The position numbers and the translations under genes are program-made. From Sphaerodactylus townsendi (taxonomy: Eukaryota), in assembly GCF_021028975.2 (NCBI RefSeq), contig NC_059436.1:36518001-36582000 (forward strand): 64,000 nucleotides of DNA. The letters are read 5' to 3'. The notes under the pieces are model-generated. The model had not been told where the DNA came from. It saw only the letters and a program-made list of their open reading frames with translations, and did no database searches. Positions 9,523 to 61,927 of the stretch are shown here, in pieces. Within the stretch, counting starts at the first letter, position 1, and each line of letters opens with the position of its first letter.

Positions 9523-10674
9523 TTTGAATTTAGCTCAATGTGAGTACCACTTTCTACATACACCCTGTTCACAAGTTCTATTACAGTGAATGTGTGTATA
9601 ATCCACTGACAGAGTAATTCTTAAATTACATTCAGTGCATGAACAGCTGTAAAGCCCACATTTATCCAGGTATCAACCTCAGGTTCTCGTCTGCAATGCC
9701 ACTCAAAGGTACAAGATGCTCTGTTGTCTTGTTTGCTTCTCTGCCTTCTCCTTCAGCCAGGGGCCTGCAAAGCCCACATTCTTGGCATTAAAAGTCCTCC
9801 GTTAATCTCTGCTCTGCACATTCATCTCGTTCAGCCTACTGGGCAAAGGCATCTGTGGAAAGGGATGAGCAATAACTCCAGAGCAGCCACTGAGTAAGAT
9901 ATGTTAGGCTGTCTCGATGAATTTACGCAGAGGAAAGAATTTGGGAATCTGGCTTTGCAAGGATGAGAACAAATCTCTTCGTAATCCTAATTATCATCTG
10001 TGTATCACTTTCAGGATTTCAAAGCTTTTCATATTGTCTTACTGCTTTCCTCACAACAACGCCGTAAGGGACAAAATTTGTAGCTGAGTCTCTCAGGCAC
10101 TACACAATGCCAGGTTTCCAAACACAATGTCCTCTTCTGCACAGCAGTGGAAAGTATCAGCAGTCTGTTTTTCTAGAAAGCAGAACAGTCTAAGAAATCA
10201 GGCTGTACTTTTATACTTTCCTTTATTTAGGGCTTACATCCTGCCTTGCCCCAGCCAAAGGCCAGGCTCAGGGCAGCTCACATAGAAACACAGGAGCAGG
10301 CAACTCCCTGAGCCTCAGGTCCTGAACTACTGGGTTTGCAGGGGTAAAGGCCTAACACACACTTTCTATTAGACTAGCCCTGGAAGTGTACAGGGTGCTT
10401 CACTTGTAAAGTGGGCAACATCACCCTGTGTGCCAGCAAGATCTCTGGATCAAAGGATGTGTGAGTGGTTGGAATAGTATTAATACCTGTTCTGCCCCCC
10501 AAGTTAATCTTTTTGAGGTGCCCTGTACTTGGCTAGGAATGGGGGAGACACAAGCCAGGTTCAACAGTTCTTACAATGGGTTTATTACTGGAGAGAAACA
10601 AGACCCTAACTCCTCCCTTGGGTCTATCTAAGTCAGAGTACTTGCTTGTCTTGAGCAGGTTTGAATCTGTAGAC

Positions 10675-10820
10675 CAGTGGTGGCGAACCTTTGGCACTCC
10701 AGATGTTATGGACTACAATTTCTATCAGCCCCTGCCAGAATGGCCAATTGGCCATGCTGGCAGGGGCTGGTGGGAATTGTAGTCCATAACATATGGAGTG
10801 CCAAAGGTTCGCCACCACGG
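10675..10820. mobile_element. Palindromic hAT MITE, TSD CTGTAGAC
   Basis: Near-perfect fold-back. TIR CAGTGGTGGCGAACCT. 8-bp TSD on both sides. Confidence 0.92.
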
Positions 10821-11506
10821 CTGTAGACTGTGACTTCTCTCAGTTGCTTTAGGAAAGTCCACTCTGTCTTGCTTCCTTTCAGCGCTTTCAGTCTTTTTCT
10901 AGTTCTAACTGCTATTAAACTTGATTTGTACTCTATGGACCACCATATATTAATATGGATGTCACAAATATTCTGGTTTCCAACACCCTTAACACCTCTC
11001 TCAGACTGACTAAAACCATGCTAACTAGGGGGAAACTAAAGCTTAATGGGGAAATAACAAAAGCCTCTGTGGGGGTATAACAATTCCGTAAGAATAATCA
11101 AATATCATGAGATCATCAATAAGTATAAGACTCACATCAACACAACATTTACTCAGGATCCTACAGAACAGGAATCAACAATTAATTATTTGGTGCTTGA
11201 TTTGCATGCTATAAACACAGTAAAAAAATGCAAAAGCTGATCAAATGCAGGTGGGGTTGAAGGTGCCTCTTGACTGTGATAAGGGACAGGCTTGTGTGGT
11301 TTCTCCATCACTGCTGTGGCTCCAATACAAAATATAGCAGTGACAAGCTTCTATGTGGCAGGTTTCCCAGCTGCATTCTTTCTGTCCCATGCGCTGCCAC
11401 TGGGGCTTTCAGTGTTTGTTTGTTCAATCTGTGCCAACAGGTTATCTGAATTCCCAGCTTTCATTTAAACAATGAATGTCTCTATCCGCTTGTGGAGATA
11501 GAAGGA

Positions 11507-13449: not shown

Positions 13450-13558
13450 CTTGCCAGCTGCTATCAGCCTCGCTCTCTTCTCCACCTTCCTGGCAAGCAG
13501 TGTTCTGCCCGGGTCCTGAGGCACCTGGCTCTTTCTCACATGCATTTGGGGCCAACTC
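13450..13558 (-). CDS. SCAN-ZNF gene, coding exon 2 (linker ELAPNACEKEPGASGPGQNTACQEGGEESEADSSWQ)
   Basis: TGTTTGTTTTAG acceptor and GTAAG donor. 109 nt, open, phase 0 to 1, which joins the SCAN exon in frame to the zinc-finger exon. Confidence 0.8.
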
Positions 13559-14012: not shown

Positions 14013-14765
14013 TTGTTTTTCCCAACTTCGGGCTTTTTCATGCAGCAGGAAACTCTCCAACAGGACTGCCGCTTGGATACAAGTTTCAGGCCCTTGACTC
14101 CTGAGCCAGTTCTGGGTTTCATTTGGCAAGATGGCCAGAAACTGTTCCAGAATCAAAAGTTCCAGGATCTCCTCTTTTGTATGTATCTCTGGCCTCAGCC
14201 ACCAGTAGCAAAGTTCCTGGAGTTGACCATAAATCTCCAACAGATCCTTACCTTCCGGATAGCAGAACTGCCTAAAGCGTTGACGCCACATCTCTGGAGT
14301 AACGCCATGTGTTTTCAAGATGGCCTCTTTCAGTGTTTCATAGTCCTTTACATCGCAGGAGATCTGTCGGATGCTCCCACTGAGGGCTGGTGCGAGTCGG
14401 GTCACCCACTCTTCTTGAGGCCAGTGACAGGCTTCAGCCACCTGCTCAAAGGTGCCCAGGTAAGCCTCAATATCATCCTGTTGAGTTAACAGAGGTGGCT
14501 GCAAGTTGTTCCAAGCTGGAGTAATGGGGGTTTGTAACTCTTTTGGCTGCTGGGCTGCCAAATTCTGAAATGTTATCCTTTTAGTCTGTTCCTTCTTCAC
14601 AGCTTGTGGTAGCCTCAACCCCAAGAGTTCATCGAGGAGTACTGCCTTTTCCACCTTTCCACAGTGGAAGCTTGCTTGAACTTGTTCTTTTTCAACATTG
14701 TGGTCTAACTTTGCTTGGAAGCTGAGACCTTGGACAAGCAGCTCAGCAGCCATTTTGCTTTCCAT
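14013..14765 (-). CDS. SCAN-domain zinc finger gene, coding exon 1 (Gypsy capsid-like N-terminal extension + SCAN)
   Basis: ATG at 14765. Translation has the SCAN signature (PEMWRQRFRQFCY...LQELCYWWLRPEIHTKEEILELLILEQFLAILP..Q.WLR..GPETCIQAAVLLESF). GTGAGT donor follows 14013; 753 nt, phase 0. Confidence 0.9.
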
Positions 14766-15490: not shown

Positions 15491-16787
15491 TATACTTCAG
15501 TTAGCCAAACTAGCCACAGAAAAAGCAGTTGTGTTTTAAAGAGGCCGAGAGAAACAAACCTGGGGCTTTAGAGGTGTTGCTGTTTACTGAGTTGCTGCTC
15601 CTAGAGAGGGCTTGTTTCCTGCCTCTGCTTGCTTCCCTCTTAACCTGCCTATATGTAACTTAACAAACATTAAAATCCCTTCAACATCCAGCACTCCCCC
15701 ACCCCACCCCAAAGTAGGAAGATGCCCCTGCAAATTTGTCCTGGCAACTCTTACTTGCAGGGCTTATACTAAGTAATGGGCTATCCACAGAACTTATTTC
15801 TAATGCTCTGAAGAGACATTAAAGAGCACCTCAGATCAGGTGTAGTTATTTTCCATCAGAACTGACTAGAATCATAGAGTTGGAAGAGACCACAAGGACC
15901 ATCAAGTCATACAAGCTGTCCATTCTGGAGGTCTGGAGCTGGTATCAGCACTTTCAAAACAGAAAGCAAAACTGTTTGGTGGATTTGAACCTTCCAGTTC
16001 TCATTAACCCTTGACCAAATTGAACTGATGTGGTCTTTGTGGCCCAAACAAATAGGCCCGCACAATTAAATTAAAGCAATTAAAGTATCTTGTGGCATTA
16101 AAGAATTGCTCTAATAAGGCTGTCTGTTGTGTCTCCAAGAAGCAATGAGCTCGGCTTGCTCTGGCCTTTTTCTTCTGCCAGTTAGCCTTCTACAAGGATT
16201 ACTCATTCTACATCAGGTGTGATTGGATAATTCACTGGTTCCCAAAGCCAAACAAAAGTAAAATGACTTACCTTCAGAGGTGGGTGCTCTGCACATCACA
16301 GCTCTGAGCTGACTTCCTTCCAGTCTGGTAACATGCTCAAAATAGTCACTTGTGCATAAACTTAGAGATTGCAGTTTTTACTCCTGTGCTTTTTGAGCTT
16401 CTAGTTTTAATTCAGGAAAAGGAGCAAGTTTCAGCTCTCAGAAATTTAGGAAATGTTCATGTGGGTTGTTTGATCTTCAAGTTTCATTCCTATCCCACTT
16501 CTCAAAAAGACCATTTGCTTAGTAAAGTTCTCAGTGAACAAGGAACTGTGCTTTCAGAAGCAGTGTGTATAAGTTTCAGGCACCCATCTCCAAGGGGAAC
16601 CAGGAAGGAGGAACTAACAACCTAGTTTGGTCTCAGACTGCTGCCCAGTTCCGCATAGCTTTAAGGAACAACCTCAGTGTAGATTAGAGAGAAAAACAAT
16701 CCTCCCTTTTACGGAAAGCGAAGGACTGTAGATGCTAGACAATTAGAATTGCCAGCTGGCCTTACTCTTTCTAACTTTCAACTATAT

Positions 16788-16935
16788 CAGGGGTAGGGAA
16801 CCTGCGGCTCTCCAGATGTTCAGGAACTACAATTCCCATCAGCCCCTACCAGCATGGCCAATTGGCCATGCTGACAGAGGCTGATGGGAATTGTAGTTCC
16901 TGAACATCTGGAGAGCCGCAGGTTCCCTACCCCTG
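16788..16935. mobile_element. Palindromic hAT MITE (148 bp), TSD AACTATAT
   Basis: CAGGGGTAGGGAACCTG...CAGGTTCCCTACCCCTG, perfect TSD. Confidence 0.95.
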
Positions 16936-18270
16936 AACTATATGAAACTTCATTTGTAAAATTTCTGCAAGTCAGCTTAATGTGAAAGACAGAGAAAGTA
17001 GACGGGTAGGGAGAATCTTTTGCATTAAAAAAACTCATTTGCTGGAAGGAGAAAAGTTAGAAGAAACTGTGTGAGGATCCTTCTGTATTCAACAGGTGAG
17101 GTTTATTGGCGTTGCCCAAAGCAGACTGTCTCCACTTTTAATGTGCGGAATTATCTTTTGGAGCTTAGTGAGTAGGGGTAATGGAGATCTGTAACCTGTG
17201 TCTATGAGGATAATCCAAATGGAAGCTCTCCAATGAAGAGTTATGATAGTAAGGATATTAATAGAATCAATTTATGACTGATCAGTATATCCATCCACAC
17301 ACTCACTGCATACAAGAGCTAACTAGAAGGAGGCAAGGAAGTGGATAGATTTCAGAGATGGGTGATATTTACCAGTTCAAATCAAATAACTTTATTGACA
17401 ATCTTAGACCAGCAATTAAGAAATTAGCATTATTTATCAGCTCAGTAGAGGTAGGGTCCATCAATAGCAGCAGATAAAAGGGAAAAGGGCCCACACAAAC
17501 TTGAGTGTGTATGCGCGAGGTGAGACAGTGGAGATTAACTAGTCCCATTGTTCAGCCAGGCATGCCTTGGGCCATGGGAAAATTACAGCTTCCAACTTCT
17601 TCCTTCCATCCTTCGACACACAAGCTGGAGACCCAAAGATTCCGGGAAAACTCCATTTTGTGTGGAGCAGTGTTTTCTTCTCATGTCAGTTCCTGTTCCC
17701 CATGCCACTTATAGCACACTATAGTGGGGTGAGGCCCAGGGGCTTCCTTTGACTTAAACTCAGCATAATTTATCCCCAGAATATTTTTGTTGTCCTGAGT
17801 GCAGATTTCAGCCCCAAAATGGTTATAAAATATCAGTACTCAGTTCTAGAACACATGAAGCAATTGTGTCAAAATAGTGTGTTGGAGCATGTGCAGAGTG
17901 CAATCCCTCCACCAGTAAGTAAATATAACGAGTCCCCTCTGTCAGGGGTAGCCACATGCAAGGAAAGCAGGATTCCACCTGTACCTTTGAGCCAGCAGGG
18001 TATAGTGGTTAAAATGAAGAGTTTCAACTGGGGAGACCAGGACTCAATTCCCTGCTCAGCCAAAAACCTCACAGGGTGGCCTCAAGCCAGCCATTCTCTT
18101 GCAGCTTAACTTGCTTATATGGTTGCTGCAAAGATTAACAAGGGGGCAGGGGGAAAAGAAGGCAATCCAGCATGCACTGCCCTGAGCGCCTTGAAATGAG
18201 GGCAAAATAAGAGTGAAAGAGTGTAGAAGAGGATGGGTTACCCATTAGAAAGCAAAAATACCACAGCTCC

Positions 18271-19194: not shown

Positions 19195-21337
19195 CAGGGG
19201 CGTAACGAGGCAAACTGTAGCCCTGGGCAAAACCTGAGTTGGATGCCCCCCCCCCCCGCCCCCATGGTCGGCCACTTCACCACGACCAAAATATTTTTGC
19301 ACCAGGACATTGGTGCGTGCAGGGGATGAATTTTTAGACACATCAGCACTAAAATTTCAGCATATCATCAGGAGACTGTCCTTATGCTACCCCCCAAGTT
19401 TGGTGAGGTTTGGTTCAAGGAGTCCAAAGTTATGGACTCCCAAAAGGGGTGCCCCATCCCCCATTGTTTCCAATGAGAGCTAATCCTCAAATTGCGTGCC
19501 CTATGCAGCCCTTTGTCTGGAGTTAGGTCAAAACTCCTTGGAATCAGCCGCTTGGCTGAGGGCTTTTAGATTCTGGCTGCAAATTCATTTTCTCTCAGAC
19601 TGTAATTCCCTGGTCCACCGTCTGCTCTCTGACACCCATTCCAACCCCTGGTTTTCCATAATTGAAGAAAAAATGGCCTCTATTGGACTGTCAGTGGATT
19701 CACTTTGCCCTTTGTCCTATTCAGAAGCTTATAGAAAATTAAAAGGTCAACTATTGGATAGAGAGTTCTCTATCCTAATCACCGCAGCCGAGAAAACATG
19801 CTCCTCCCTGTATTTTTGTCGCCCATTTCAACAGGACCACTTGGCACACTACCTGTATTGCTTAATAAACCCTGCTCAAAGGAGAGCCATAATGCTTGCC
19901 AGGTTTAATGTTATGCCTTCTGCCTTGTTACATGGCAGATTTAATAAGCAAGAAAAGGCTAAAAGATTGTGCCCATGTAATGATGGCTCAGTTGAATCTC
20001 TGGCCCACCAATTACTCTGGCCCACCAATGTCTCAGATTGAAGGAAATCAGATCTAAGTATGTGAATCTTACTCCTTTACATTTACCAGATCTCCCCATT
20101 TTAATTAGATTACACTACTTGTTGGACAATCCTGATTCTTCTCTCTGTATGATAGTGGCAGACTTTATCTTGGAAATTACTAAACGCTAATAGATTTCCT
20201 TTGACCTAACATTTATTTCCTGTATTGTATATGCTTTTTAATCATTTTTATTATTGTTGCACGGTTGTCTATGCCAATAAAGGCTTGCAATGGGAGCTAA
20301 TAAGAGATGGGGGCTACAGTTTTGAGGGTCCATAACTTTGGCCCCTCTGAACCAAACTGCACCAAACCTGGGGGGTATCATCAGGGCAGTCTCCTGATGA
20401 GTCCCTGAAAGTTTTGAGACTGTACCTTCAGAAATGTGCCCCCCCCAGCCTGCAACCCCCATTGACAGGAATACAGAAAACTCAATGCAGAACAAAGATT
20501 CTTGGGCAAATTTCTGGGATGTTCCTGCAGGGGGCGCATTTTTTGATGTATCAGCACCAAAATGTCAAGTATCATCTGGAAACCGTCCTAATGGGACCCC
20601 CCCCCCCCAGGTTTGGTGCAGTTTGGTTCAGGGGCCAAAGTTATGGACCCTCAAAGGTGTAACCCCCACCCACATTCTTTGCTAAGGAGGTGGGGCTACC
20701 CTTTGAGGGTCCATAACTTTGGACCCCCTGAACCAAACTGCACCAAACCTGGGGGGTGCCATCATGACAGTCTCCAAATGATACCATGAAAATTTGGTGC
20801 TGATACGTCCAAAAATGCCCTCCCTACAAGAACATCCCGAAATTTGCCCAAGAATCTTTGTTCTGCATTGAGTTTTCTGCATTGCTGTCAATGGGGGTTG
20901 CAGGCTGGGGAGGCACATTTCTGAAGGTACAGTCTCAAAACTTTCAGGGTCTCATCAGGAGACTACCCTAGTGATACCTGCCAGGCTTGGTGCAGTTTGA
21001 TTCAAGGGGGCCAAAGTTATGGACCCTCAAAACTGTAGCCCCCATCTCCTATTAGCTCCCATTGGAAACAATGGGGGATAGGGACACCCCCTTTGAGAGT
21101 CCATAACTTTGGACTCCCTGAACCAAACCTCACCAAACTTGGGGGGGTAGCATAAGGGCAGTCTCCTGGTGATAAGCTGAAATTTTGGTGCAGCTACTAG
21201 CCTAAAAACTGCACCCCCTGCAGGCCAAAAATGGAAAACCACTAAAATACCCAAAAACGAAACCAGCATTTTGATGCCCCCCACAAGGTGATGCCCTGGG
21301 CAGCTGCCCACCTTGCCCAATGGGCATTACGCCAGTG
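19195..21337. mobile_element. Non-autonomous hAT (Tip100-like TIR) element with internal inverted repeats, TSD ACCCAAAC
   Basis: CAGGGGCGTAAC...ATTACGCCAGTG. TSD at 19187-19194 and 21338-21345. Six alternating-orientation copies of CCATAACTTTGG..TGAACCAAAC..CACCAAAC. Confidence 0.85.
19485..20287 (+). mobile_element. 5'-truncated LINE (RTE-X-like) 3' end, 14-bp TSD
   Basis: ORF 19496-20041 encodes a post-RT C-terminus with CPC...ES..H zinc-knuckle (RRAIMLARFN...RLCPCNDGSVESLAH) and a frameshift. Ends AATAAAGGCTTG. TSD CAATG(A/G)GAGCTAAT at 19471-19484 and 20288-20301. Confidence 0.8.
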
Positions 21338-21830: not shown

Positions 21831-23099
21831 CCACAATTCTAATTTATTTTAATTTTGTTAAGCTTAGCTTTCCCATCCTTTCCTAGCCAAAGCTGAGCTT
21901 GGGGCAACTCGCTTACATACTTATGCAAATACCAAATATAACAAACACAAATACAAAAAACATTAAAACTACAGTGTCAGTAAACAACATAGATCCTAAG
22001 GATGGCAGTAAAAGTTAATTCATTTCAGGTTCCATTTCCACACGCCAATAGCCTAAAAATTCCTTCTCCCACCCCAAAGCAATCAGCTGGAGGGTGGGGA
22101 GAAGAGGGTGCAGATTGGGAGGCCACTAGATAGTAAAAACTGTAGCTGCCTCAACCAAAGGCCCAGTGGAACACCTGTCTTGAATTCACCTTCTTCCTTT
22201 CAGTTTTCATTGCCCATTGTTGTACGGTGACAGTAAGTGCCTCTGGAAGGGCAAATCCACCAGCACAGTGGTGTGCTGCTCCCTGAAGCAGATTCATTCC
22301 CCCCCCCCCTCTGAAGCTGGGACATCCTACATGCTTCTTCTTCCCACAACAGGCACCTTGTTACATATGTAGTTCTGGCCCAAGATCGCCCAGCGGGCTT
22401 CGTGTGGAGTGGGGAATCAAGTAGAGTTTTTAAAATATTTTGCCTGTACATTCTGTTAAGTACACCAAATGGCAGTTTTATATGCTAAATTATAATTCTG
22501 TTGCTAAAGCAGAGTTTATGTTTGATTAAGTATTGCATATATTTCAATTCCCTCAGAATTTGACACCTCCCAAACTACATTTTTCATGGCTTTAAATTTT
22601 CCAGAAACAGTAATCTCTGTTCCTACCATATGAGATATATACATACATGGTTTTTCCAAATGATACATATTGTTTTCCACCCATGCCCCAAACACATCTG
22701 TAATAAAATCTTGTTACTGGGAGGGCTTACAAATTGGTAATATGCACACTTGCTTTGCATGAACAACTGCCAAGATCAGTCCTTAGCAGCTTCAGTGTAA
22801 GGGGTCTCCAGAAGATGGGGGTAGAATCACTGATGCTTTTTAGCCTTATTTCCAGTCATTCAGAAAGTTACCACCTCCAGGAGGGGCTTGGAAATCACCC
22901 AGAATTAAACTTGTTTCGACTACATAAATCAGTTCCCTTGGAGGAAATAGCAACTTTGGAGGGTAGATCCTGTGACATCATATACCTGTTGAGTTCTCTG
23001 CCCAAACACCCAAGACATGACTAAATCTACAGCAATTTACCAGACTGGAATTGGTAACCCTAAGTACATGCCATACTGCATTAGATAAATGCATTAGAT

Positions 23100-23247
23100 C
23101 AGGGGTAGGGAACCTGCGGCTCTCCAGATGTTCAGGAACTACAATTCCCATCAGCCTCTGTCAGCATGGCCAATTGGCCATGCTGGTAGGGGCTGATGGG
23201 AATTGTAGTTCCTGAACATCTGGAGAGCCGCAGGTTCCCTACCCCTG
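23100..23247. mobile_element. Palindromic hAT MITE (148 bp), TSD CATTAGAT
   Basis: Reverse-complement copy of the 16788 element, perfect TSD. Confidence 0.95.
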
Positions 23248-24365
23248 CATTAGATAAACCAACACACTGAAGAGCAATAAAACTGTTCCATATTCTCTTC
23301 TCCCATCAACCAATGTGACGCCTGCAGAGATCCTCCAGAAGAAGAGAAGGCTTTTTGCCAGGAAACTTATGCAAATCTATGCCTCAGCATACAATAAAAA
23401 CACTTTTTCTAATCAGTAGATTATTGGCCTGGCAGTTGGCTGGCCAATAGGAAATACAAGTTTTAATCTCCGCCCAGCAGAATGGGGGAAAAATCAGTTG
23501 GGCTCCTTGTCCCAACACTTCCAGAGAAAGATCTAATCAGAGTGTTTCATGTGAGTTGCCAATTTTTTAAAGCCACTTTGAAGCCAACATAGTGGAGTGG
23601 CCAGAATGTCAGATCTGGAAAACCCCAGTTCAAATTTCCACTGGGCCATGGAGGCTCCCTGGGTGATCTAGGGCCAGACACTTGCTCTTAGGGTAACAAA
23701 CCTCACAAGGGTTGTTGTGAAGAAGATACACTGGATGAAGGGAAAATGATGTTCTCTCCATTGGAGAGAAGTGGGGGTACAAAATCTGAGCAAAATCTTG
23801 CCTGGCATGCAAATGCCCAATTCACATTACGACTGCTGCACTGAATATGTCTGTGGGTGAAGTTTTCCACATGGGGCAAACAGTGATTCCCTAGAGCAGT
23901 TTCAGATTTTTAAAAAGTGGTAGGAAAAGGCTTAAACGCCATTCCCTTCACAATAATGATCCAAATTGAGCCCCTATGAGTTACTAAAACAAACTTTATT
24001 TAATTTTAAAATTTAATACTACTACTACTAATAATAATAATACTGCATTTGCATATTTATATTGTTCCTAGTCAAGAACCTTCTCCATTTATGAAACAAC
24101 TACCTCCCTTTTTAATCTATGCAATTTAACTCTTTTTAACTGCACTGGGAACTTGTAGCTGTTTAAGTTAACAGTTTAAAATAAAATAAACCCTGGGAGG
24201 CCTATGTTTTAATACCCTTGCAATAAAATGTGATACAGGTTGCAGTATTTTCCACACAAAAACCAGACATTCTCCACCTTTCAAAGCCCTTGAGGTTGAG
24301 CCGCTCTGAACTGAAGTAGGCGGTCCTAGCAAAGAAAAGCCAACAACTTTGAAAGACAAAACATC

Positions 24366-24411: not shown

Positions 24412-24561
<150 letters not shown>

Positions 24562-25357
24562 CTATTTACAGGAGAGACAGAGGTCAGGCTAATAAAGGAC
24601 CGATATGTTTTTTGTTTTAGTATTTCTAAGTATGTGCAGCACCTTCGTGTAATTGGCATTCCCCATCTGCCACTTTATCCCTCTTTGCCCCTTCGTTCCC
24701 TGCATCACTTCTCATGTCAAACTCTAGGCTGAAACACACTGTGGGAAAGGACTTACTTCTTGCTCATTTGCACTATATGAAACAGAAGGATCCTGCAATG
24801 TGATCTGGGCCCGATGGTGCCAGTACTGCTCCACTGACTGTTTGAAAGTCAACTGTGCCTTGACCCAGCAGGAAGACAGCCCAAGTCCTTGTAACATTTT
24901 CCCTGCTACCAAAATCCTCATATTGGCTTTCTTTCCTACTCTGTGCCAGATTATCAGCCAACTATCAGCCCTTACAAAAGGCATGCACTGCCCAAAGAGA
25001 ACTATGTACCTGCAGGACAACTGCTCAGACCGGCTGGCCCAGCGAAAGCCACCCAGCAGGGGAATGCTTTAGCAAGAGCAGATTCACACTGCATCCACGG
25101 GTTTGTTAGCAGTGTTGGGTGTTAGCCTTGCAGATTTTTTTTAAAGCTCTCCTGCAATTATCCATACATGCCACTTACCTACTCAATATAAGGTGCTCTG
25201 AGATACTTCTTAAAAATAGCCATTATTTGATTTGAGCTCACTTAAGCTTTGAGAATATTAAAACTTTACATGCTGCTACATGGATGCCGACCACCTGTTC
25301 TGGCTCTGCCCTTGTTTCACTTAGAGTGCAACGGATGGGCAGGAGGCAAAAATGTCA

Positions 25358-25540
<183 letters not shown>

Positions 25541-25938
25541 TTACTACCAAGGATAATTGTGCACTGGCCTGGGACCTGAAAGGCCCAGATTCTAATTCTA
25601 GTTCTGTCAAACTCACTTGCTTTTGGGCAAGCCCCTGTCTAGGAATGCTTTAGCAAGTGCAGATTCACACTGCATCCACGGGTTTGTTAGCAGTGTTGGG
25701 TGTTAGCCTTGCAGATTTTTTTTAAAGCTCTCCTGCAATTATCCATACATGCCACTTACCTACTCAATATAAGGTGCTCTGAGATACTTCTTAAAAATAG
25801 CCATTATTTGATTTGAGCTCACTTAAGCTTTGAGAATATTAAAACTTTACATGCTGCTACATGGATGCCGACCACCTGTTCTGGCTCTGCCCTTGTTTCA
25901 CTTAGAGTGCAACGGATGGGCAGGAGGCAAAAATGTCA

Positions 25939-26121
<183 letters not shown>

Positions 26122-26253
26122 TTACTACCAAGGATAATTGTGCACTGGCCTGGGACCTGAAAGGCCCAGATTCTAATTCTAGTTCTGTCAAACTCACTTG
26201 CTTTTGGGCAAGCCAAAAATTGAGCTAAGGCTGTGAAATAACCTGTAGACAGG

Positions 26254-27179
26254 TGTAACGAACTTGCCCCCACCCTGAAGGGCTGGTGTACAGCAGGCCA
26301 AAGGGAGAAGGCCTTAGCAACAGCCAGAAAAAGAAAAAAAGGCTCCACAAGGAGAGAACCGACCTGATTGGCTGAAAAAGGTCCAGTAACGTTTGGCAAG
26401 AGCTAGGGGGAGCCAGTGGGCTTACAGCACTGAGAGGAGAGTTGAGTGCTGATAGGAGTCGGTCAGAGAGAGCAGAGCAGAGTCTGGCGAAGGGAGTCTG
26501 TCAGCTCTGGAAGAAAAGGATTCTGTCTCAGCAGAGTTGGCTGACAGAAGTCCAGTCCCTGTCTAAGCGGTGTATGCTTGACAGAGAGAGGAGGCCCTGA
26601 CTGGGTGCAGATTGACGTGCCCTTCAGGGAGGGCTTAAAGCGGTTTTAAAACTGCCCAGACCTATCTAGTCTGCCTTGCCCCTGGGTGTATCACCAGAAT
26701 CACCAGTCTGGGAGAAGCCAGTCCAGAGGCAGTGAAGCCATATTAGGACTAGTGGGAGAGAGGGAGGCCAAGTTAATGCCCAGAATCTCCTGGAGCTTGG
26801 ACTGTGTGCTTAGGTGTGATCAGTGGAGTATGTGGAGCAGTGAGGGAATGGTGTGTCTGTGTGTGTAAGGGTACACCTCGCACGTGTGTCGGTGTGCATA
26901 TGAATCTGAAGTAACATCTTAAGACAAACTTATTCTGAAACCAACAAGCGTAAAACCTCTCCAGTTTACCTGAGAAGCCTCTTTGTGAAAGCCAGCAAAT
27001 AAACGTTTCAGTTTTGTTCATCTTTTAAAACCTTTCCAGTCATTAGTATTTTTTTCGTCACCTGTGTCTGTGTTCCAAAGGGGTGAGATTGTCTGGGGAA
27101 AATCAGTATTGAGTGGAGCTATGGGAAAAATATTATTGAGTGGCGAGCCAGAACTTATATATAAGTGGCTTTCGTTACA
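26254..27179 (+). mobile_element. Solo LTR (926 bp, Gypsy-like) in RPL35 intron 2, 5-bp TSD ACAGG
   Basis: TGTAACGAA...TTCGTTACA termini. ACAGG at 26249-26253 and 27180-27184. AATAAA near 26998. Confidence 0.9.
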
Positions 27180-35238: not shown

Positions 35239-35639
35239 GGAAGGATGGGGCAACTGGGGATGGAATGTGAGGGATTTGGGATAGAAAAGAATGGGGCTGG
35301 AAGGCTAAAATGTGATGTTGAGGTGTTTGGGTGATGCTCTTCGTGGAGGGTTATGGGGGAATAGGTTTGGGTTGTTTGGAAGATTTGTACAGAGGGATGT
35401 GAGAGTCTGAGGGGTGTAGGGAGTAAGGTGTTTTATGGCTTGGTTGTGGTGGAGGAATGGGTTGTTGGGGTGGTGGTGCTTTGCTGGATTGTATATTGAA
35501 GGATGGAAGTATTGGTGTATGAAAGGCCAAGGTTTTGAGAGTATTAGTGTATGAAAGGCCAAGGTTTTGGGGTAGAAGGAAATTGGGTGTAAGAGCAGAG
35601 AGAGGACTATGTGGGTTTTAGAGGTAGGAGGCAGTAGAG

Positions 35640-35763
35640 CACAGGTGTCAAACTCGCGGCCCTCCAGATGTTATGGACTACAGTTCCCATCACCCCCTGC
35701 CAGCAGGGGCTGATGGGAACTGTAGTCCATAACATCTGGAGGGCCACGAGTTTGACACCTATG
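35640..35763. mobile_element. Palindromic hAT MITE, TSD CAGTAGAG
   Basis: CACAGGTGTCAAACT...AGTTTGACACCTATG with 8-bp TSD. Confidence 0.9.
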
Positions 35764-37779
35764 CAGTAGAGGGTGATGACAAATGGTGTTGTGAATGGAC
35801 TTTGTGGAAGGGAATTAGAAATATAGGGGTGTGGGGCAAAGTGCAGTGGGATGGGTTGGAGGTTGTTCAGAGAGTTTGTATAGTTAAGTATGGAAGTGAT
35901 TTGGATATGGGGAGTTGGGGGAAGTGGAGGATGAAAGGTAATGACTTTGTGAGTGGTCTGGGGTAGGAAAGAGTTGGATGGAGAAACAGGAGGTGTTTGA
36001 GGAGGGGGCCAGGGGCAGTCTCAAGGGTGATGTGTTACTGTAGGGATTTAGGAAATAAGATATGTGGAATTTTTAGGGTTGATAATTTTGAGAGTTTGCA
36101 GCAGGAGGGATGTGGGGCTGGTGGCTTTGTTAGGGTTTGAGGTATGGGAAAGCAAGGCCGTGATTGCTTGTGTGTTGCCCTGTGCGAAATTGTCTGCTGA
36201 TGTGTTGAGAAGTCAAGATATAGGTAAAGGGTTTGGGAGTATCTTGGTGAATGGGTGAGTTTGAATAAGATATGAGAATATACAGGTGCTGAAAGAGGAG
36301 AATGGGGGATGGGTCCCTATGAGGAGTTGGAGATTGCTTTGAGAGTTGAAGCTCTACCAACCACATGGAGGATATAACTTCTGGTGTCAGGCTAATTGGT
36401 TATAGAATAGGACTATCCTTGGGTAAGGAACTGGTGATATTTGTTAAAGGAGAAGGTGCTGAGGTATTATGGTGTGCTAGATGTAGATAAAATGGTTCAT
36501 TGATTCATTTTGAAGGAGCGGAGTTAAGAATGTTTCAAAAACAAATAGCAATCTTTTAAATATTTAACAAAATTTCATTTCAGCATAAGTTTTTGTGGAC
36601 TATAGTCCACTGCAGAAATTATGAGTGGATCCTTGCTCTGTAGTCATTTTATGTTGGCATCAAGGGGTCATAAAATGCAAGAAGTACAGAATTAAGTGTA
36701 ATATGTCAAACTCAAACCCAGTTAGGAGAAATAGTCTGTTATTTGTGCTAAACTAGTTAATACACATAATGTTAGATGTTTTGTTAATGCAAAAGCTTCT
36801 AAATCCTTCTTCAATGCTTCCAGGGAGGAAGGAATAAATCCCAGTTCAGCTATGTAATCTGCTGGGGTACTTGGTTTTTGACCTAAGTCACCATCTATCA
36901 GCAAAAATTCGAAGGCAGATTCCAGTGTGAAAATGTGAAATTGGGATTCACTAGCAGATGCTACCTGCTGGGTTGAATTGGGACTTGGAATTTTTATCTT
37001 GCTGCAACAGTGACTTCCTTAACAAAATGTGTAATTCCTCACCCTTTGTAAGTATTAAGTAGCTTAGTGTGTAATTAATAAAATGATTTCCATTTGAAGC
37101 AGGGTTCCTATAGCCCTTGAAAACCTTATGCTGGAATAAAATGGTTAGTCTTTTGAAGTTTCAAAAGACTTTTTGTTGTTGAAACAGACTGATGCTGCTA
37201 TCCCTTCATTATGGTATTCTGATTTAGGTTTGTTGCCCAATGGAATTTAGGTTTGTTTAGGTGTGTTCTTATGGGGAGAAGAGGTTTCTGAGTATGCAGT
37301 GGAAGGTCACTGCAGAAGAGGACAGCATTGTGCATTGGGAGAAGATTTATTTCAGAGGGGTCATGGCAGACAGAGATGTTGTAGGAAGGGGTAGTAAAAT
37401 AACACAGGTCAAAACAGGACACAGTCCAAAGGCAGAAGAGAGACTGCCGCTAGTAAGGAAGAAGGGTTGATCCTGTAATTTATCCTTCATTTGGTGCATG
37501 TAATTTATCCTTCATTTGTATAATGTGTAGAGTTAATGTGTTTGCAGGTGAAAGCCATTCAGCATATTCTTGCTTCGATATTGGCTTCACTGGAATAAGG
37601 TGGTCTTTGCTGTGGTCACTGCTCCTTGGGAGATCTTTGGGAACAAACGTACAGTCAAATGCAGGGAATTTGTGGAGGTGCCCAGTGATGTGTTGTGTTG
37701 GGTGGAGTGGAATTGTCATGCTTACTTGTCCCTGCAGCCCTATGTCATTGCCTTCTCTCTTTCCCCTTCCCCTTTCCAG

Positions 37780-52996: not shown

Positions 52997-53129
52997 TATG
53001 GGATCTGCAACCTGCGGCTCTCCAGATATTCATGGACTACAATTCCCATTAGCCTTTGACAGCATGGCCAATTGGCTGATGGGATTTGTAGTCCATGAAC
53101 ATCTGGAGAACTGCAGGTTGCAGACCATG
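52997..53129. mobile_element. Older palindromic hAT MITE
   Basis: Same CTCCAGATGTT..GGACTACAATTCCCA fold-back core; termini eroded. Confidence 0.75.
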
Positions 53130-58771: not shown

Positions 58772-58883
58772 AGGAAAAGACCAAGAAAAATGATCCAGGG
58801 GTTACATATTCTCACTATGGAAACCCTGAGGTGTTTGGGCTTCTTAGGTTAGATTATAGATTGTTAAGGTGATGTATGATAGA

Positions 58884-58945
58884 CCAGTGGTGGCGAACCT
58901 TTGGCGCTCCAGATGTTATGGACTACAATTCCCATCAGCCCCTTC
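58884..58945. mobile_element. Truncated hAT MITE (left arm only)
   Basis: CAGTGGTGGCGAACCTTTGGC...ACTACAATTCCCATCAGCCCC, as in the 10675 element. Confidence 0.75.
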
Positions 58946-61927
58946 CTGGAGGACAGGCTTTTTGAAGACTACCTACTGAATGAAGCCGCTGTGTTGAGGG
59001 TATAAAGTTGTGGGTGGGGGGAGCAGTAGGGGAAAGCTATTTCCTTTATGCCTTGCATGTTGGTTCTCTGAGGATATCTGCCTGGCCATTGTAGGGAATG
59101 CTGGATTAAGTCGTCATTTAGTCTGGTCCTGAGATGCAGGTAATTTTATGCACGTAAATCATATCTAGACATTGCTGTGGGCCCTCCCTATTGCCTTACT
59201 TATATCCGGTCTGTCTCATTCATAAGCATTTTTCTCCATATCTCTCCTGATCACCAGTCTTCAGAAACTTTGTGGCTGATGTTCTGTCCTGGAAGGTTGC
59301 TGGCAGGTAATTAAGGGACAGTGCCTGAAGCAAAGTAATTGAAACTACTGGAGCCTGAAAGAGAATAAGATTTTTTCCCCCTTCATCTTCTAATTTTAGC
59401 CAAAGAAGCTTCACTGGGTCACAATGATCAGTTCCCTGGGTCATGAGAAGTTTATTGCTGTCCAGGGCTTGGCTGATACTCAGGGAAATAATTTGGCATC
59501 TAGTTAAACTGGCATTCTAAAAGTGCCGAGTTCAGTGAATAGCGTACTGAATGCCACCTTCGCCAAGACAAGTGGTTTGTTTAAAAAATAAAAAACCCAA
59601 CCAGAGGCCAAAAGGAAGCAGCACCAAACTTGGCGGGCTGCAGGCATCTCTCTCTAGGAGTGGCTTGTATTCTCTGGCTTTCCCCTCAGCTGTTTGTAGC
59701 CTCATTGTGTAGAAAAGGGGCTTCCAAAACGGTAAAGGGATTTTTACTAGAAAAAAAGATGGCAACTATTCATACGGGAAGTTGAGTTCTTTATGAATGG
59801 TGCAGGGATGAGAATTCTCCCCCACCCAATCACCCAATTGAACCTGAATTGGCTACAGATTCAGAACTGATTAGAGAGGAAAAAGCTATTTCATAAAACA
59901 CAAAAGGAGTGCATAGAATTCACTTGCATCAAATGCAATAATGGCCACTAGTTGAGGCTTTAAACCAAATTACAAGAAGATCCATGCTCACATGTTCACC
60001 ATGTTTCCTCACTGTCAAAGCAGCTGTGGGCAGCCTCAGTTCGGATGTGGAAGACATTATGGGGGAGGGAGGATTTCTTCTTTCCTCTACTTTGTTTTTC
60101 CAGCCTCTAATCCCCTCCCCCAGCTGCTACCTATAGCTTGCCTGTCTGGTTTCTCCAGCAGAGCAAAAACCTGCTGGGTGGGAGAGTTTGTAGTTGGGAA
60201 CATGGTTTGGGAGGAAAAGCTTAATGTTTCTCCCTCCCTCATGTGGATATTGCCACCTGAATTAGGACCTCCCATGGCTGCTGTTTCAAAAGGAGAAAAA
60301 CAACTGGAAATTCATCACTGAATCTTGCATTATTCTGCGTAGTGTAGCCCTTACTTGGCCTTTAAAAAGGCACAGGGTGATACAGATACCTGGAGGGTAT
60401 GTTTTATGATGGCTAATGGAACCTCCACTTATAGCAGTGCAGCATTCTCTCACTACCAGATGCTGGGGTCAGAGTGGAAGGTTGTTGTCAGTAGCATTGA
60501 GCTTGCTGCTTCGACCAGCAGTGCTCATGAAGATGGTCCTCGGCTAGAACCTGCAAGGCAATTCTGAGGGTGTTTTGTTTTGCTGGATAAGTCTCTAGAC
60601 CAGTTTCCTTCCCCCATCCCACTTTTTGGGTTTAGCTCTGGGGCATTCTGGGACCTACTTAAAAACAAAGCAGCTCAAGAAATTAAAATCCTAGCTCTGT
60701 GCCACCTGCTCCATCTGGACTTGCAGTGTTTATGTCTTGAAGAGGTGAAGGGTGAAATGTGCCTCAAATATGTCATTTTTTGTTTGTTGACATGTTGTTC
60801 AGATTAGGTGGGAGTAAGGAGAAACTTTAGTGGGGACAAGAATGGGCATGGCAGATCCTGTGGTTCCAAGAAGTGAATGTGATAGGCAAATCAAGATCTC
60901 CTCTCCAACCTGCTGTGATCTTTGGGAGAAAACAACCTGGAGGAAGAAGTGCTATATCTCGTTGAGCCTACAAAAGATCATATTCCATCACTTCTCCAGG
61001 GAAAGGCCCAGCTTGAAGAGTCCTTACCTTATATAGGAGTTCGACCCATCTCTACTTGATTCTTCTGGAGCAAACTGGAAAGGAAGAAGCAAAACTGGAT
61101 CTTTGATTTTATCTGCCTTTGTGTGTGCACTCCAAGCTTATGAACACTTGGAGGGAAATTTCAAGCTGGAGAGCCACAGTGGAGCTCTGTCGTGTTCTCG
61201 TTCACATCACCTGTTCAGCCTTCATAACCATACAGGTTACAGTATTTTTTTCAGTCGCATTGGTTTTTAAAGTGTGATGTATTTAGACACTTTCCCTTCT
61301 TTCTGGTGCCCCTACTTCTCACCTTGTACATTTAAATGGTAGCCGTCAGCAAGGAGTTCTTTGTCAGAAGCTTGTTGCAGATGACTAAACCTTGTATCAA
61401 TACTTGGATGTTCCCAGTGCTACTTGAGATGCCTGGTGGGTCTGTGAATGGAAGCTTTCCCCTTGCCGTCAGTTGTGCTTCTTTAAAAAAAAAAAATGGC
61501 ACTCCAAACACATTTCTGGCTAAGGAGGATGTAGGTGCGCAGGAAGGGAAAGATAGCATTTTCTTTTCCTAGTCAGCAGGGCTTTCTTTTGATATTGCAT
61601 TCTATTTTTAAGCATCCAGCAATAGATTTCCGGCCCTTCGTGAAGTCAGATGAGGCCCTTATCACGTATGACACCAACTCTGAGAGAGCATGCCTGCCAA
61701 ACCCTTCATGCCGTCTGGTGGACTGAACATGATTAACAGATTCACATGGCTGCCTTTATTCTTTACAACCTAATTGAGAAGGATAATGAAATGCCCATAT
61801 TGGTGCACGTTCTTTCTATCCTATGTAAAAAGTTGATGCGTGCATCCCTTCCCTCAATTTTTTCCTTATTAATATGCAGGTGATGAGGAATTGGTGTGTT
61901 TTAGATGAGGTTGCCGTTCCGCTAAAG

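What the first reader, a model, noticed from the sequence alone, without database searches (positions are those of the whole stretch)
14013..14560. SCAN-zinc-finger gene keeps the N-terminal half of a Gypsy/Gmr1 capsid in front of SCAN
Seen: directly before the SCAN box the same exon encodes LTQQDDIEAYLGTFEQVAEACHWPQEEWVTRLAPALSGSIRQISCDVKDYETLKEAILKTHGVTPE. Established: SCAN derives from the C-terminal capsid domain of Gmr1-like Gypsy Gag, and DD.EAYL.TFE..A....W....W...LAP.L.G is the pattern of the adjacent upstream Gag region, which typical mammalian ZSCANs lack. Such extended SCANs have been noted in lizards. Inference: this intron-containing host gene retains a nearly complete two-domain capsid fused to four C2H2 fingers. 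It might oligomerise (Arc/PEG10/PNMA-like) or co-assemble with and restrict active Gmr1 Gag. A Gypsy-like solo LTR sits 12 kb away.
Basis: partly seen in the sequence, partly recalled or inferred. Interest (0 to 1): 0.7.

Follow-up and report, generated by a model that had tools for sequence, protein, structure and literature searches.

The report
Gecko extended-SCAN zinc-finger gene
This gecko zinc-finger gene keeps both halves of a retrotransposon shell protein instead of the single half that mammalian relatives keep; that form was already described in lizards and occurs dozens of times in this genome, and here it likely serves to pair the DNA-binding protein with itself rather than to build shells.

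Summary
Observation confirmed. A three-exon SCAN-C2H2 gene (minus strand, 510 aa) encodes, directly before SCAN, about 70 residues that align with the Gag of Gmr1-like retrotransposons in the same genome (34-36% over both lobes, E to 1e-22) and are predicted to fold like the Arc/dArc/copia capsid N-lobe. This is the 'extended SCAN' (ESCAN) of Emerson and Thomas 2011, cited through reviews. It is common: 87 matches in this genome, 53 in one cluster; 43 of 43 host copies tested form one clade apart from Gag, so one old capture. The lobe is under purifying selection (dN/dS about 0.25 across paralogues). Against shells or restriction for this copy: no nucleocapsid, fingers 2-4 nearly invariant across four other lizards, and a five-residue deletion in the lobe that 177 of 190 host and 45 of 46 Gag-like rows lack. 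A model supports, but does not show, a two-fold N-lobe dimer (0.50; best control 0.02). The solo LTR is real but belongs to another, abundant family. Best reading: an ordinary dimerising transcription factor with a likely second pairing surface. The scan noted a related lizard double-SCAN gene on other DNA.

The parts
14013..14765 (-). First coding exon (251 codons): 84-aa leader, capsid N-lobe, SCAN; ends at a GT donor, phase 0
   Evidence: identical to residues 1-251 of P0005
14514..14765 (-). Leader, residues 1-84; shared only with the four orthologues, no match to Gag
   Evidence: 4 of 119 host proteins match, 0 of 49 Gag-like proteins at E<0.7
14298..14513 (-). Capsid N-lobe (the ESCAN extension), residues 85-156, four predicted helices
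   Evidence: tblastn to Gmr1-like Gag; model pLDDT 76.7; Arc N-lobe prob 0.99, TM 0.68; dArc1 41-122 Z 8.1, rmsd 2.5, 71 aligned
14355..14375 (-). Site of a five-codon in-frame deletion in N-lobe helix 3 (exact placement ambiguous)
   Evidence: G130-Y142 spacing 11 here, 16 in 177 of 190 host and 45 of 46 Gag-like rows; no gap there in contigs of runs X3, X4, X5
14037..14297 (-). SCAN domain (capsid C-lobe), residues 157-243, with host-type lysine at SCAN position 41 (K197)
   Evidence: PF02023 E 2.9e-35; 53% to ZNF24 SCAN 3LHR; K in 189 of 190 host, 4 of 46 Gag-like rows
13450..13558 (-). Second coding exon (109 nt), acidic linker; no KRAB
   Evidence: AG/GT sites; frame matches P0005; no PF01352 in P0005
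12267..12937 (-). Third coding exon: linker, four C2H2 fingers (12590-12276) and stop
   Evidence: fingers 2-4 92-98% identical in four other lizards
26254..27179 (+).
   Evidence: TG...CA with 5-bp duplication; 37 other full-length copies at 87-90%; no similarity to LTRs of L001-L008

Best explanation
The gene encodes a KRAB-less ESCAN zinc-finger protein: both lobes of a Gmr1-like retrotransposon capsid joined to four C2H2 fingers, likely working as a sequence-specific transcription factor that pairs through SCAN. Shown: the anatomy, the Gag origin of both lobes, descent from the same old capture as the other reptile ESCAN genes, purifying selection, and conserved fingers 2-4 across geckos, a cordylid and a monitor. 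Inferred: the fingers bind a long-conserved DNA site; SCAN makes homo- and heterodimers with other SCAN proteins as in mammals; the N-lobe is kept as a folded module that is predicted to add a second, two-fold pairing surface through its first helix, tuning partner choice or oligomer size rather than closing a shell.
For: Gag origin. Fold. One capture: 43 host rows one side of a branch against 33 Gag-like rows, 100/99; also for each lobe alone, SH-aLRT 90 and 92, few columns. Selection: dN/dS 0.24 over all pairs of 41 host exons, 0.26 (0.20-0.32) over 10 independent close pairs, against 0.18-0.19 for SCAN and 0.38-0.48 upstream; 0 stops in 40 fetched paralogues; N-lobe 59-86% identical among five orthologues against 27-62% for the linker. 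Fingerprints of fingers 2-4 identical in 5 of 5 orthologues and in no other protein held. Host-type K41 kept; in human SCAN-ZF proteins SCAN is a dimerisation domain under purifying selection and K41 is enriched over Gag (10.1101/2025.03.03.638093, passages; equating my position 41 with theirs is my assumption). N-lobe in four copies: score 0.50, best of 3 controls 0.02, runs agree in at least 79% of contacts, pLDDT at least 82; mark reached by 21 of 30 solved pairs and 0 of 23 single chains in microbes, 17 of 29 (animals 7 of 16; 1 of 7 without an older relative) and 0 of 30 in eukaryotes. Interface residues V109 and C113 are kept in 172 and 171 of 190 host rows against 17 and 12 of 46 Gag-like rows.
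Against: No RNA, binding or localisation data. The dimer model may be memory of solved capsid C-lobe dimers, which also use helix 1 (PMC8121366, passages); the job used an isolated lobe and four copies, outside the calibration. This copy evolves faster than its gecko orthologues (end branch 0.23 against 0.068 and 0.096), has lost 3 of 19 N-lobe positions shared by host and Gag rows and a SCAN proline kept in 189 of 190 host rows, so function may be relaxing. dN/dS is from paralogues, with dS of 0.5-1.4; orthologue DNA was available only as 13 coding differences in one related organism. Structural scores are middling (no Foldseek E below 0.001 for the lobe; Z 8.1 at best) and C-lobes score as well as N-lobes.
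Confidence: 0.7

Rival explanations
1. The N-lobe is a folded passenger: kept across the family for stability or spacing, and decaying in this gecko lineage; the protein works as a plain SCAN-ZF factor.
For: Five-residue deletion and loss of shared residues; long end branch; 40 of 42 squamate and 17 of 17 mammalian SCAN-ZF proteins found through their fingers have no lobe, so SCAN-ZF proteins work without it.
Against: dN/dS about 0.25 across paralogues; 0 amino-acid changes in the lobe against 6 in the leader between this genome and organism C (small counts); lobe still predicted to fold; conserved exposed helix-1 residues and a supported dimer model.
Confidence: 0.14
2. ESCAN proteins assemble capsid-like rings, lattices or shells (Arc/PEG10/PNMA2-like), in the nucleus or as particles.
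For: Both lobes present in capsid order, matching PNMA2, dArc1, Arc and Ty3 capsids over 146-173 columns (prob 0.72-1.00, E 0.004-0.2, rmsd 12-13 A); dArc builds capsids from the two lobes alone (PMC8121366, abstract and passages); lobe self-association supported.
Against: No zinc knuckle; 270 residues of linker and fingers follow; the confident predicted contact is two-fold, whereas capsid N-lobes form five- and six-fold rings; helix-3 length is fixed in 45 of 46 Gag-like rows but shortened here; host SCAN has diverged from Gag at K41.
Confidence: 0.09
3. The protein binds or poisons Gag of Gmr1-like elements, or is led by the capsid to their DNA: a restriction factor, as speculated for SCAN in 2011.
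For: Young Gmr1-like copies exist in this genome (paired LTRs 84-99% identical in 8 of 8 fetched); the idea is in print, with predicted binding of some lizard SCAN-ZF proteins to Gmr1-like DNA (PMC4592553, passages).
Against: Only about 35% identity to the resident Gag and a separate clade; nearly invariant fingers across distant lizards and low mean dN/dS do not look like an arms race (site-wise selection not tested); the review states that experimental evidence was lacking; the nearby LTR is unrelated.
Confidence: 0.07

Closest known systems
ESCAN (extended SCAN) zinc-finger genes of Anolis (Emerson and Thomas 2011, J Virol 85:12043; not held, seen only through PMC3406341, PMC4592553, PMC3971581)
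   Same: Full-length Gmr1-like capsid region, N-lobe plus SCAN, in front of a C2H2 array in a lizard host gene; one host clade apart from Gag.
   Different: Another species; a single gene outside the main cluster, with four fingers, no KRAB and a five-residue lobe deletion. The predicted fold and dimer of the lobe are added here.
Mammalian SCAN zinc-finger proteins (ZNF24, ZNF174, MZF1, PEG3; PF02023 + PF00096)
   Same: SCAN 44-53% identical to solved human and mouse domains; K41; KRAB-less SCAN-linker-finger plan.
   Different: They lack the N-lobe (0 of 17 tested); fingerprints not shared with any mammalian protein held.
Gag of Gmr1-like Ty3/Gypsy retrotransposons
   Same: Both capsid lobes colinear at 30-38% identity; 16 of 19 shared N-lobe positions kept.
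   Different: No zinc knuckle, protease, integrase, RT or LTRs; introns; host-type substitutions; leader unrelated.
Arc, dArc1/2, PNMA2, PEG10 (domesticated capsids that assemble)
   Same: Two-lobe capsid fold by structure search.
   Different: No sequence match; fused to DNA-binding fingers; no assembly evidence; independent origin from another retrotransposon clade (PMC8321522, passages).

Membership tests
ESCAN zinc-finger genes | SCAN domain | tested here: met
   PF02023 120 bits, cut-off 27
ESCAN zinc-finger genes | N-terminal extension homologous to the upstream capsid part of Gmr1-like Gag, contiguous with SCAN | tested here: met
   tblastn to 8 of 8 elements; the 72-aa extension alone finds them; elements have SCAN, knuckle, protease, and integrase before RT in L003 and L005
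ESCAN zinc-finger genes | C-terminal tandem C2H2 array in a host gene | tested here: met
   four fingers, two GT-AG introns, match to P0005
ESCAN zinc-finger genes | Descent from the host SCAN capture, not a fresh insertion | tested here: met
   inside the host clade, 100/99; with four orthologues 100/97; root not inferred
ESCAN zinc-finger genes | Match to the published ESCAN profile | not testable with these tools
   paper not held; no Pfam model passes for the lobe in 49 of 49 members
Two-lobe Ty3/Gypsy capsid fold | Four-helix capsid lobe before the C-lobe | tested here: met
   predicted helices 15-29, 33-43, 47-54, 58-68; the top 14 VIA rows and top 10 Foldseek rows are capsid lobes; N versus C identity rests on position, since both lobes share the fold (PMC6525542)
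Capsid-forming domesticated Gag (Arc, PEG10, PNMA2) | Assembly into shells | not testable with these tools
   needs EM; addresses only lobe pairing
Capsid-forming domesticated Gag (Arc, PEG10, PNMA2) | Nucleocapsid zinc knuckle (present in some members only) | tested here: not met
   no CCHC motif in six frames of the window; no PF00098 in P0005
SCAN-KRAB zinc-finger proteins | KRAB domain | tested here: not met
   no PF01352 at E<=0.01 in P0005, P0026, P0039, P0040
Capsid-derived restriction factors | Binding to the element's Gag and loss of its mobility | not testable with these tools
   no job or experiment run on this
Gmr1-like retrotransposon (is the gene itself one?) | Flanking LTRs and pol with integrase before RT | tested here: not met
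   no Gmr1-like DNA match or LTR pair around the gene

The most novel reading that the evidence does not exclude
Reptile ESCAN zinc-finger proteins carry two independent pairing surfaces, the SCAN dimer and an N-lobe helix-1 dimer that the host has remodelled. A protein with two two-fold surfaces can chain into higher oligomers or open lattices, so some 60 gecko factors could build capsid-derived arrays on chromatin, an intermediate between shell and transcription factor that mammals lost when the lobe was trimmed.
Probability: 0.17. Interest if true: 0.65.

Novelty: new member of a known kind. Interest (0 to 1): 0.27.

Why it matters
As a gene it is ordinary: one of many reptile ESCAN zinc-finger genes. 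Its use is as a test bed for a question open since 2011, namely what the capsid domain did when hosts first captured it. Geckos keep the full two-lobe form under selection beside young Gmr1-like elements, the lobe has no Pfam model and so is invisible in annotation, and the predicted helix-1 dimer gives specific residues to test. This copy, with its deletion, is a natural variant rather than the best candidate for assembly.

Tried and rejected
Sequence searches of the lobe against solved structures found no capsid; Pfam gave only sub-threshold hints (Retrotrans_gag E 0.0047 and Arc_capsid_dom E 0.082, 1 of 49 members each); the Atlas gave leads under 0.9 only. Fresh capture from resident elements: rejected by the trees. 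Assembly error as cause of the deletion: rejected, contigs of three runs from three coded organisms and two studies span the site without a gap (X3 may be close to the source). Link to the solo LTR: rejected; 0 of 14 loci of that family match Gmr1-like Gag or Pol, and its one long internal frame has no Pfam match. Gag origin of the leader: no support. A finger-based search for more orthologues returned only many-fingered proteins, so turtle, snake, bird or crocodile orthologues are neither shown nor excluded. No RNA holder was listed; expression and splicing remain untested. Emerson and Thomas 2011 could not be read. Searches for a test of ESCAN assembly found none; 'ESCAN' occurred in one review only; subscription journals are not covered. 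Alignment A3 was made and not used. Site-wise selection and five- or six-copy models were not run.

Full report
THE GENE. The quoted peptide lies on the minus strand in a 251-codon exon, 14765-14013. Canonical splice sites join it to exons 13558-13450 and 12937-12267, giving 510 residues with four C2H2 fingers, identical to database protein P0005, labelled ZSCAN9-like of Sphaerodactylus townsendi by its source. Pfam finds SCAN at 157-243 (E 2.9e-35) and no KRAB or zinc knuckle. Splicing was not checked on RNA.

THE SEGMENT BEFORE SCAN IS GAG. The 72 residues before SCAN, searched alone in the own genome, give 87 matches (150 of 158 candidates scored, a lower bound): 53 in a cluster on C3, 11 more of similar score including the gene itself, and 23 weaker dispersed ones (my tally from its table). 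I fetched 8 of the 23. All 8 have paired long repeats, 84-99% identical, and align to the gene from the lobe onward at 30-38% identity. The 6 Gag frames scanned have SCAN, a zinc knuckle and a protease-like match, and integrase precedes reverse transcriptase in L003 and L005, the order described for Gmr1-like elements (10.1101/2025.03.03.638093, passages). The 84-residue leader matches 0 of 49 Gag-like proteins.

FOLD. A model of residues 85-251 (pLDDT 84) matches solved SCAN domains best and then Arc, PNMA2, dArc1 and Ty3 capsids over both lobes, with large rmsd (12-13 A) as expected for another lobe angle. The lobe alone (pLDDT 76.7) gives Arc N-lobe first (prob 0.99, TM 0.68, but E 0.09; none under 0.001), and by VIA dArc1 41-122 (Z 8.1, rmsd 2.5, 71 aligned), a Ty1 C-lobe (8.1, 2.9, 72), copia 1-91 (7.7, 2.6, 71), PNMA2 4-88 (5.8) and Ty3 N-domain (5.7); the first non-capsid row is at Z 6.0. 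The scores are middling, but the top 14 rows are all capsid lobes. Both lobes share one fold (PMC6525542, passages), so calling it the N-lobe rests on its place before SCAN in Gag. Sequence alone does not reach solved capsids.

IT IS THE KNOWN ESCAN FORM AND IT IS COMMON. [quoted passage not shown] The idea that SCAN leads finger proteins to capsids is also in print, without experimental support then (PMC4592553, passages). The primary paper was not held; I saw none of its text. Here 113 of the 120 listed homologues, from geckos, other lizards, snakes, turtles and tuatara, have the lobe beside SCAN (the query contained the lobe, so this is biased), and a lobe profile finds 5,587 cluster representatives at E<=0.001. 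In a set found through fingers, 0 of 17 mammalian and 2 of 42 squamate SCAN proteins have it.

ONE OLD CAPTURE. In a tree of 43 of 190 host rows and 33 of 46 Gag-like rows (subset chosen by me for spread; 20 partial domains dropped; 'Gag-like' database rows are so labelled by likeness to Gag, not all show pol domains), the host rows are one side of a branch at 100/99, apart from this genome's own elements, and the gene groups with proteins of two geckos, a cordylid and a monitor at 100/97. Each lobe alone gives the same split with weaker support. These five share the fingerprints of fingers 2-4 (92-98% identity), which no other protein held shares, so I treat them as orthologues; synteny was not checked.

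SELECTION. Among 41 host exons of this genome (40 fetched of about 63), none has a stop, and Nei-Gojobori dN/dS is 0.24 for the lobe, 0.18 for SCAN and 0.38 upstream; on the 10 of 20 independent nearest pairs with pS under 0.5 it is 0.26 (0.20-0.32), 0.19 and 0.48; six Gag copies give 0.07 with saturated dS. Among orthologues the lobe is 59-86% identical, like SCAN (63-80%), against 27-62% for the linker. Against organism C there are 0 replacement and 1 silent change in the lobe, 2 and 1 in SCAN, 6 and 2 upstream; too few to test.

THIS COPY IS A DRIFTED ONE. It lacks five residues in helix 3 of the lobe: spacing 11 against 16 in 177 of 190 host and 45 of 46 Gag-like rows; 8 other host rows and 1 Gag-like row are also short. 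All four orthologues have the full length; contigs of X3, X4 and X5 share the short form. It has lost 3 of 19 lobe positions shared by host and Gag rows and its end branch is two to three times that of the other geckos. It keeps the lysine at SCAN position 41 found in 189 of 190 host and 4 of 46 Gag-like rows.

OLIGOMERS. Four copies of the lobe scored 0.50 against a best control of 0.02; runs agreed in at least 79% of contacts, pLDDT at least 82. The mark was reached by 21 of 30 solved pairs and 0 of 23 single chains (microbes), and 17 of 29 pairs (animals 7 of 16; 1 of 7 with no older relative) and 0 of 30 single chains (eukaryotes); four copies lie outside the calibration. The confident contact is a two-fold dimer on helix 1 and the N-terminal strand (V109 on V109, T105, Q108, A112, C113). 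Capsid C-lobe dimers also use helix 1, so this may be memory, and N-lobes in dArc capsids form five- and six-fold rings instead (PMC8121366, abstract and passages). It supports pairing, does not show it, and does not exclude rings. V109, C113 and Q108 are far more fixed in host than in Gag-like rows, which fits a host-tuned surface (inference).

THE SOLO LTR. It is at 26254-27179 with TG...CA ends and a 5-bp duplication. There are 37 other full-length matches among 40 of 1,180 candidates scored. It does not resemble the LTRs of L001-L008, and 0 of 14 loci of the family match Gmr1-like Gag or Pol. Its nearness says nothing about the gene.

MECHANISM. Most likely (0.70) a conserved squamate transcription factor: fingers bind a fixed site, SCAN pairs it with itself or other SCAN proteins as shown for human members (10.1101/2025.03.03.638093, passages), and the lobe adds a second pairing surface. 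Rivals: decaying passenger lobe (0.14), capsid-like assembly (0.09), Gag restriction (0.07). All functional steps are inferred. Other papers seen as passages only: PMC3424704, PMC8321522, PMC10516033 (which left SCAN proteins out of its capsid survey), PMC5379526. No supplements were read; those of the 2025 preprint may bear on reptile Gmr1-like counts and on SCAN numbering.

VERDICT. Observation right, origin right, already a described kind; assembly and restriction untested and, for this copy, less likely than for its intact relatives. Earlier scan notes: none by sequence, none relevant in this genome, one lizard double-SCAN gene and one fungal capsid-bearing factor on other DNA. Interest 0.27.

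Noticed in passing
L001-L008 (G000 C1, C2, C6-C10): Gmr1-like LTR elements with paired LTRs 84-99% identical persist in this gecko; 23 of 87 lobe matches are dispersed copies of this type by score, 8 checked. A 68-genome survey called such elements depleted in reptilian genomes (10.1101/2025.03.03.638093, passage).
   Followed up: partly
G000:C3:6.9-10.8 Mb: Cluster with 53 matches to the N-lobe, all without stops inside the match; six more on C15. Whether each is followed by fingers was not checked.
   Followed up: partly
P0002-P0024 and others: Many reptile proteins carry two or three ESCAN units in one chain; some may be annotation fusions of neighbouring genes.
   Followed up: no
protein set: Only 2 of 42 squamate SCAN proteins with long finger arrays (mostly KRAB-bearing) keep the lobe, while most ESCAN hits lack KRAB: lobe and KRAB may be largely alternative; both samples are biased.
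   Followed up: partly
window 26254-27179; L049, L051, L055, L060: The solo-LTR family has two-LTR copies with a short internal part (about 1.8-2.3 kb); L049 holds a 427-codon frame without Pfam match, perhaps a non-autonomous element.
   Followed up: partly
window 25061-26215: Tandem duplication, period 581, one mismatch in 573 bases; recent duplication or assembly artefact.
   Followed up: no
window 24415-24561 (-): Last coding exon of ribosomal protein L35 (uL29), E 3e-23 to solved structures; a synteny anchor for finding orthologues.
   Followed up: yes
window 16783-16946, 23095-23258, 10657-10833, 35622-35776, 53000-53126, 58867-58953: Short palindromic interspersed repeats (MITE-like by shape).
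   Followed up: no
window 19313-21186: Cluster of direct and inverted repeats with about 380-base spacing.
   Followed up: no
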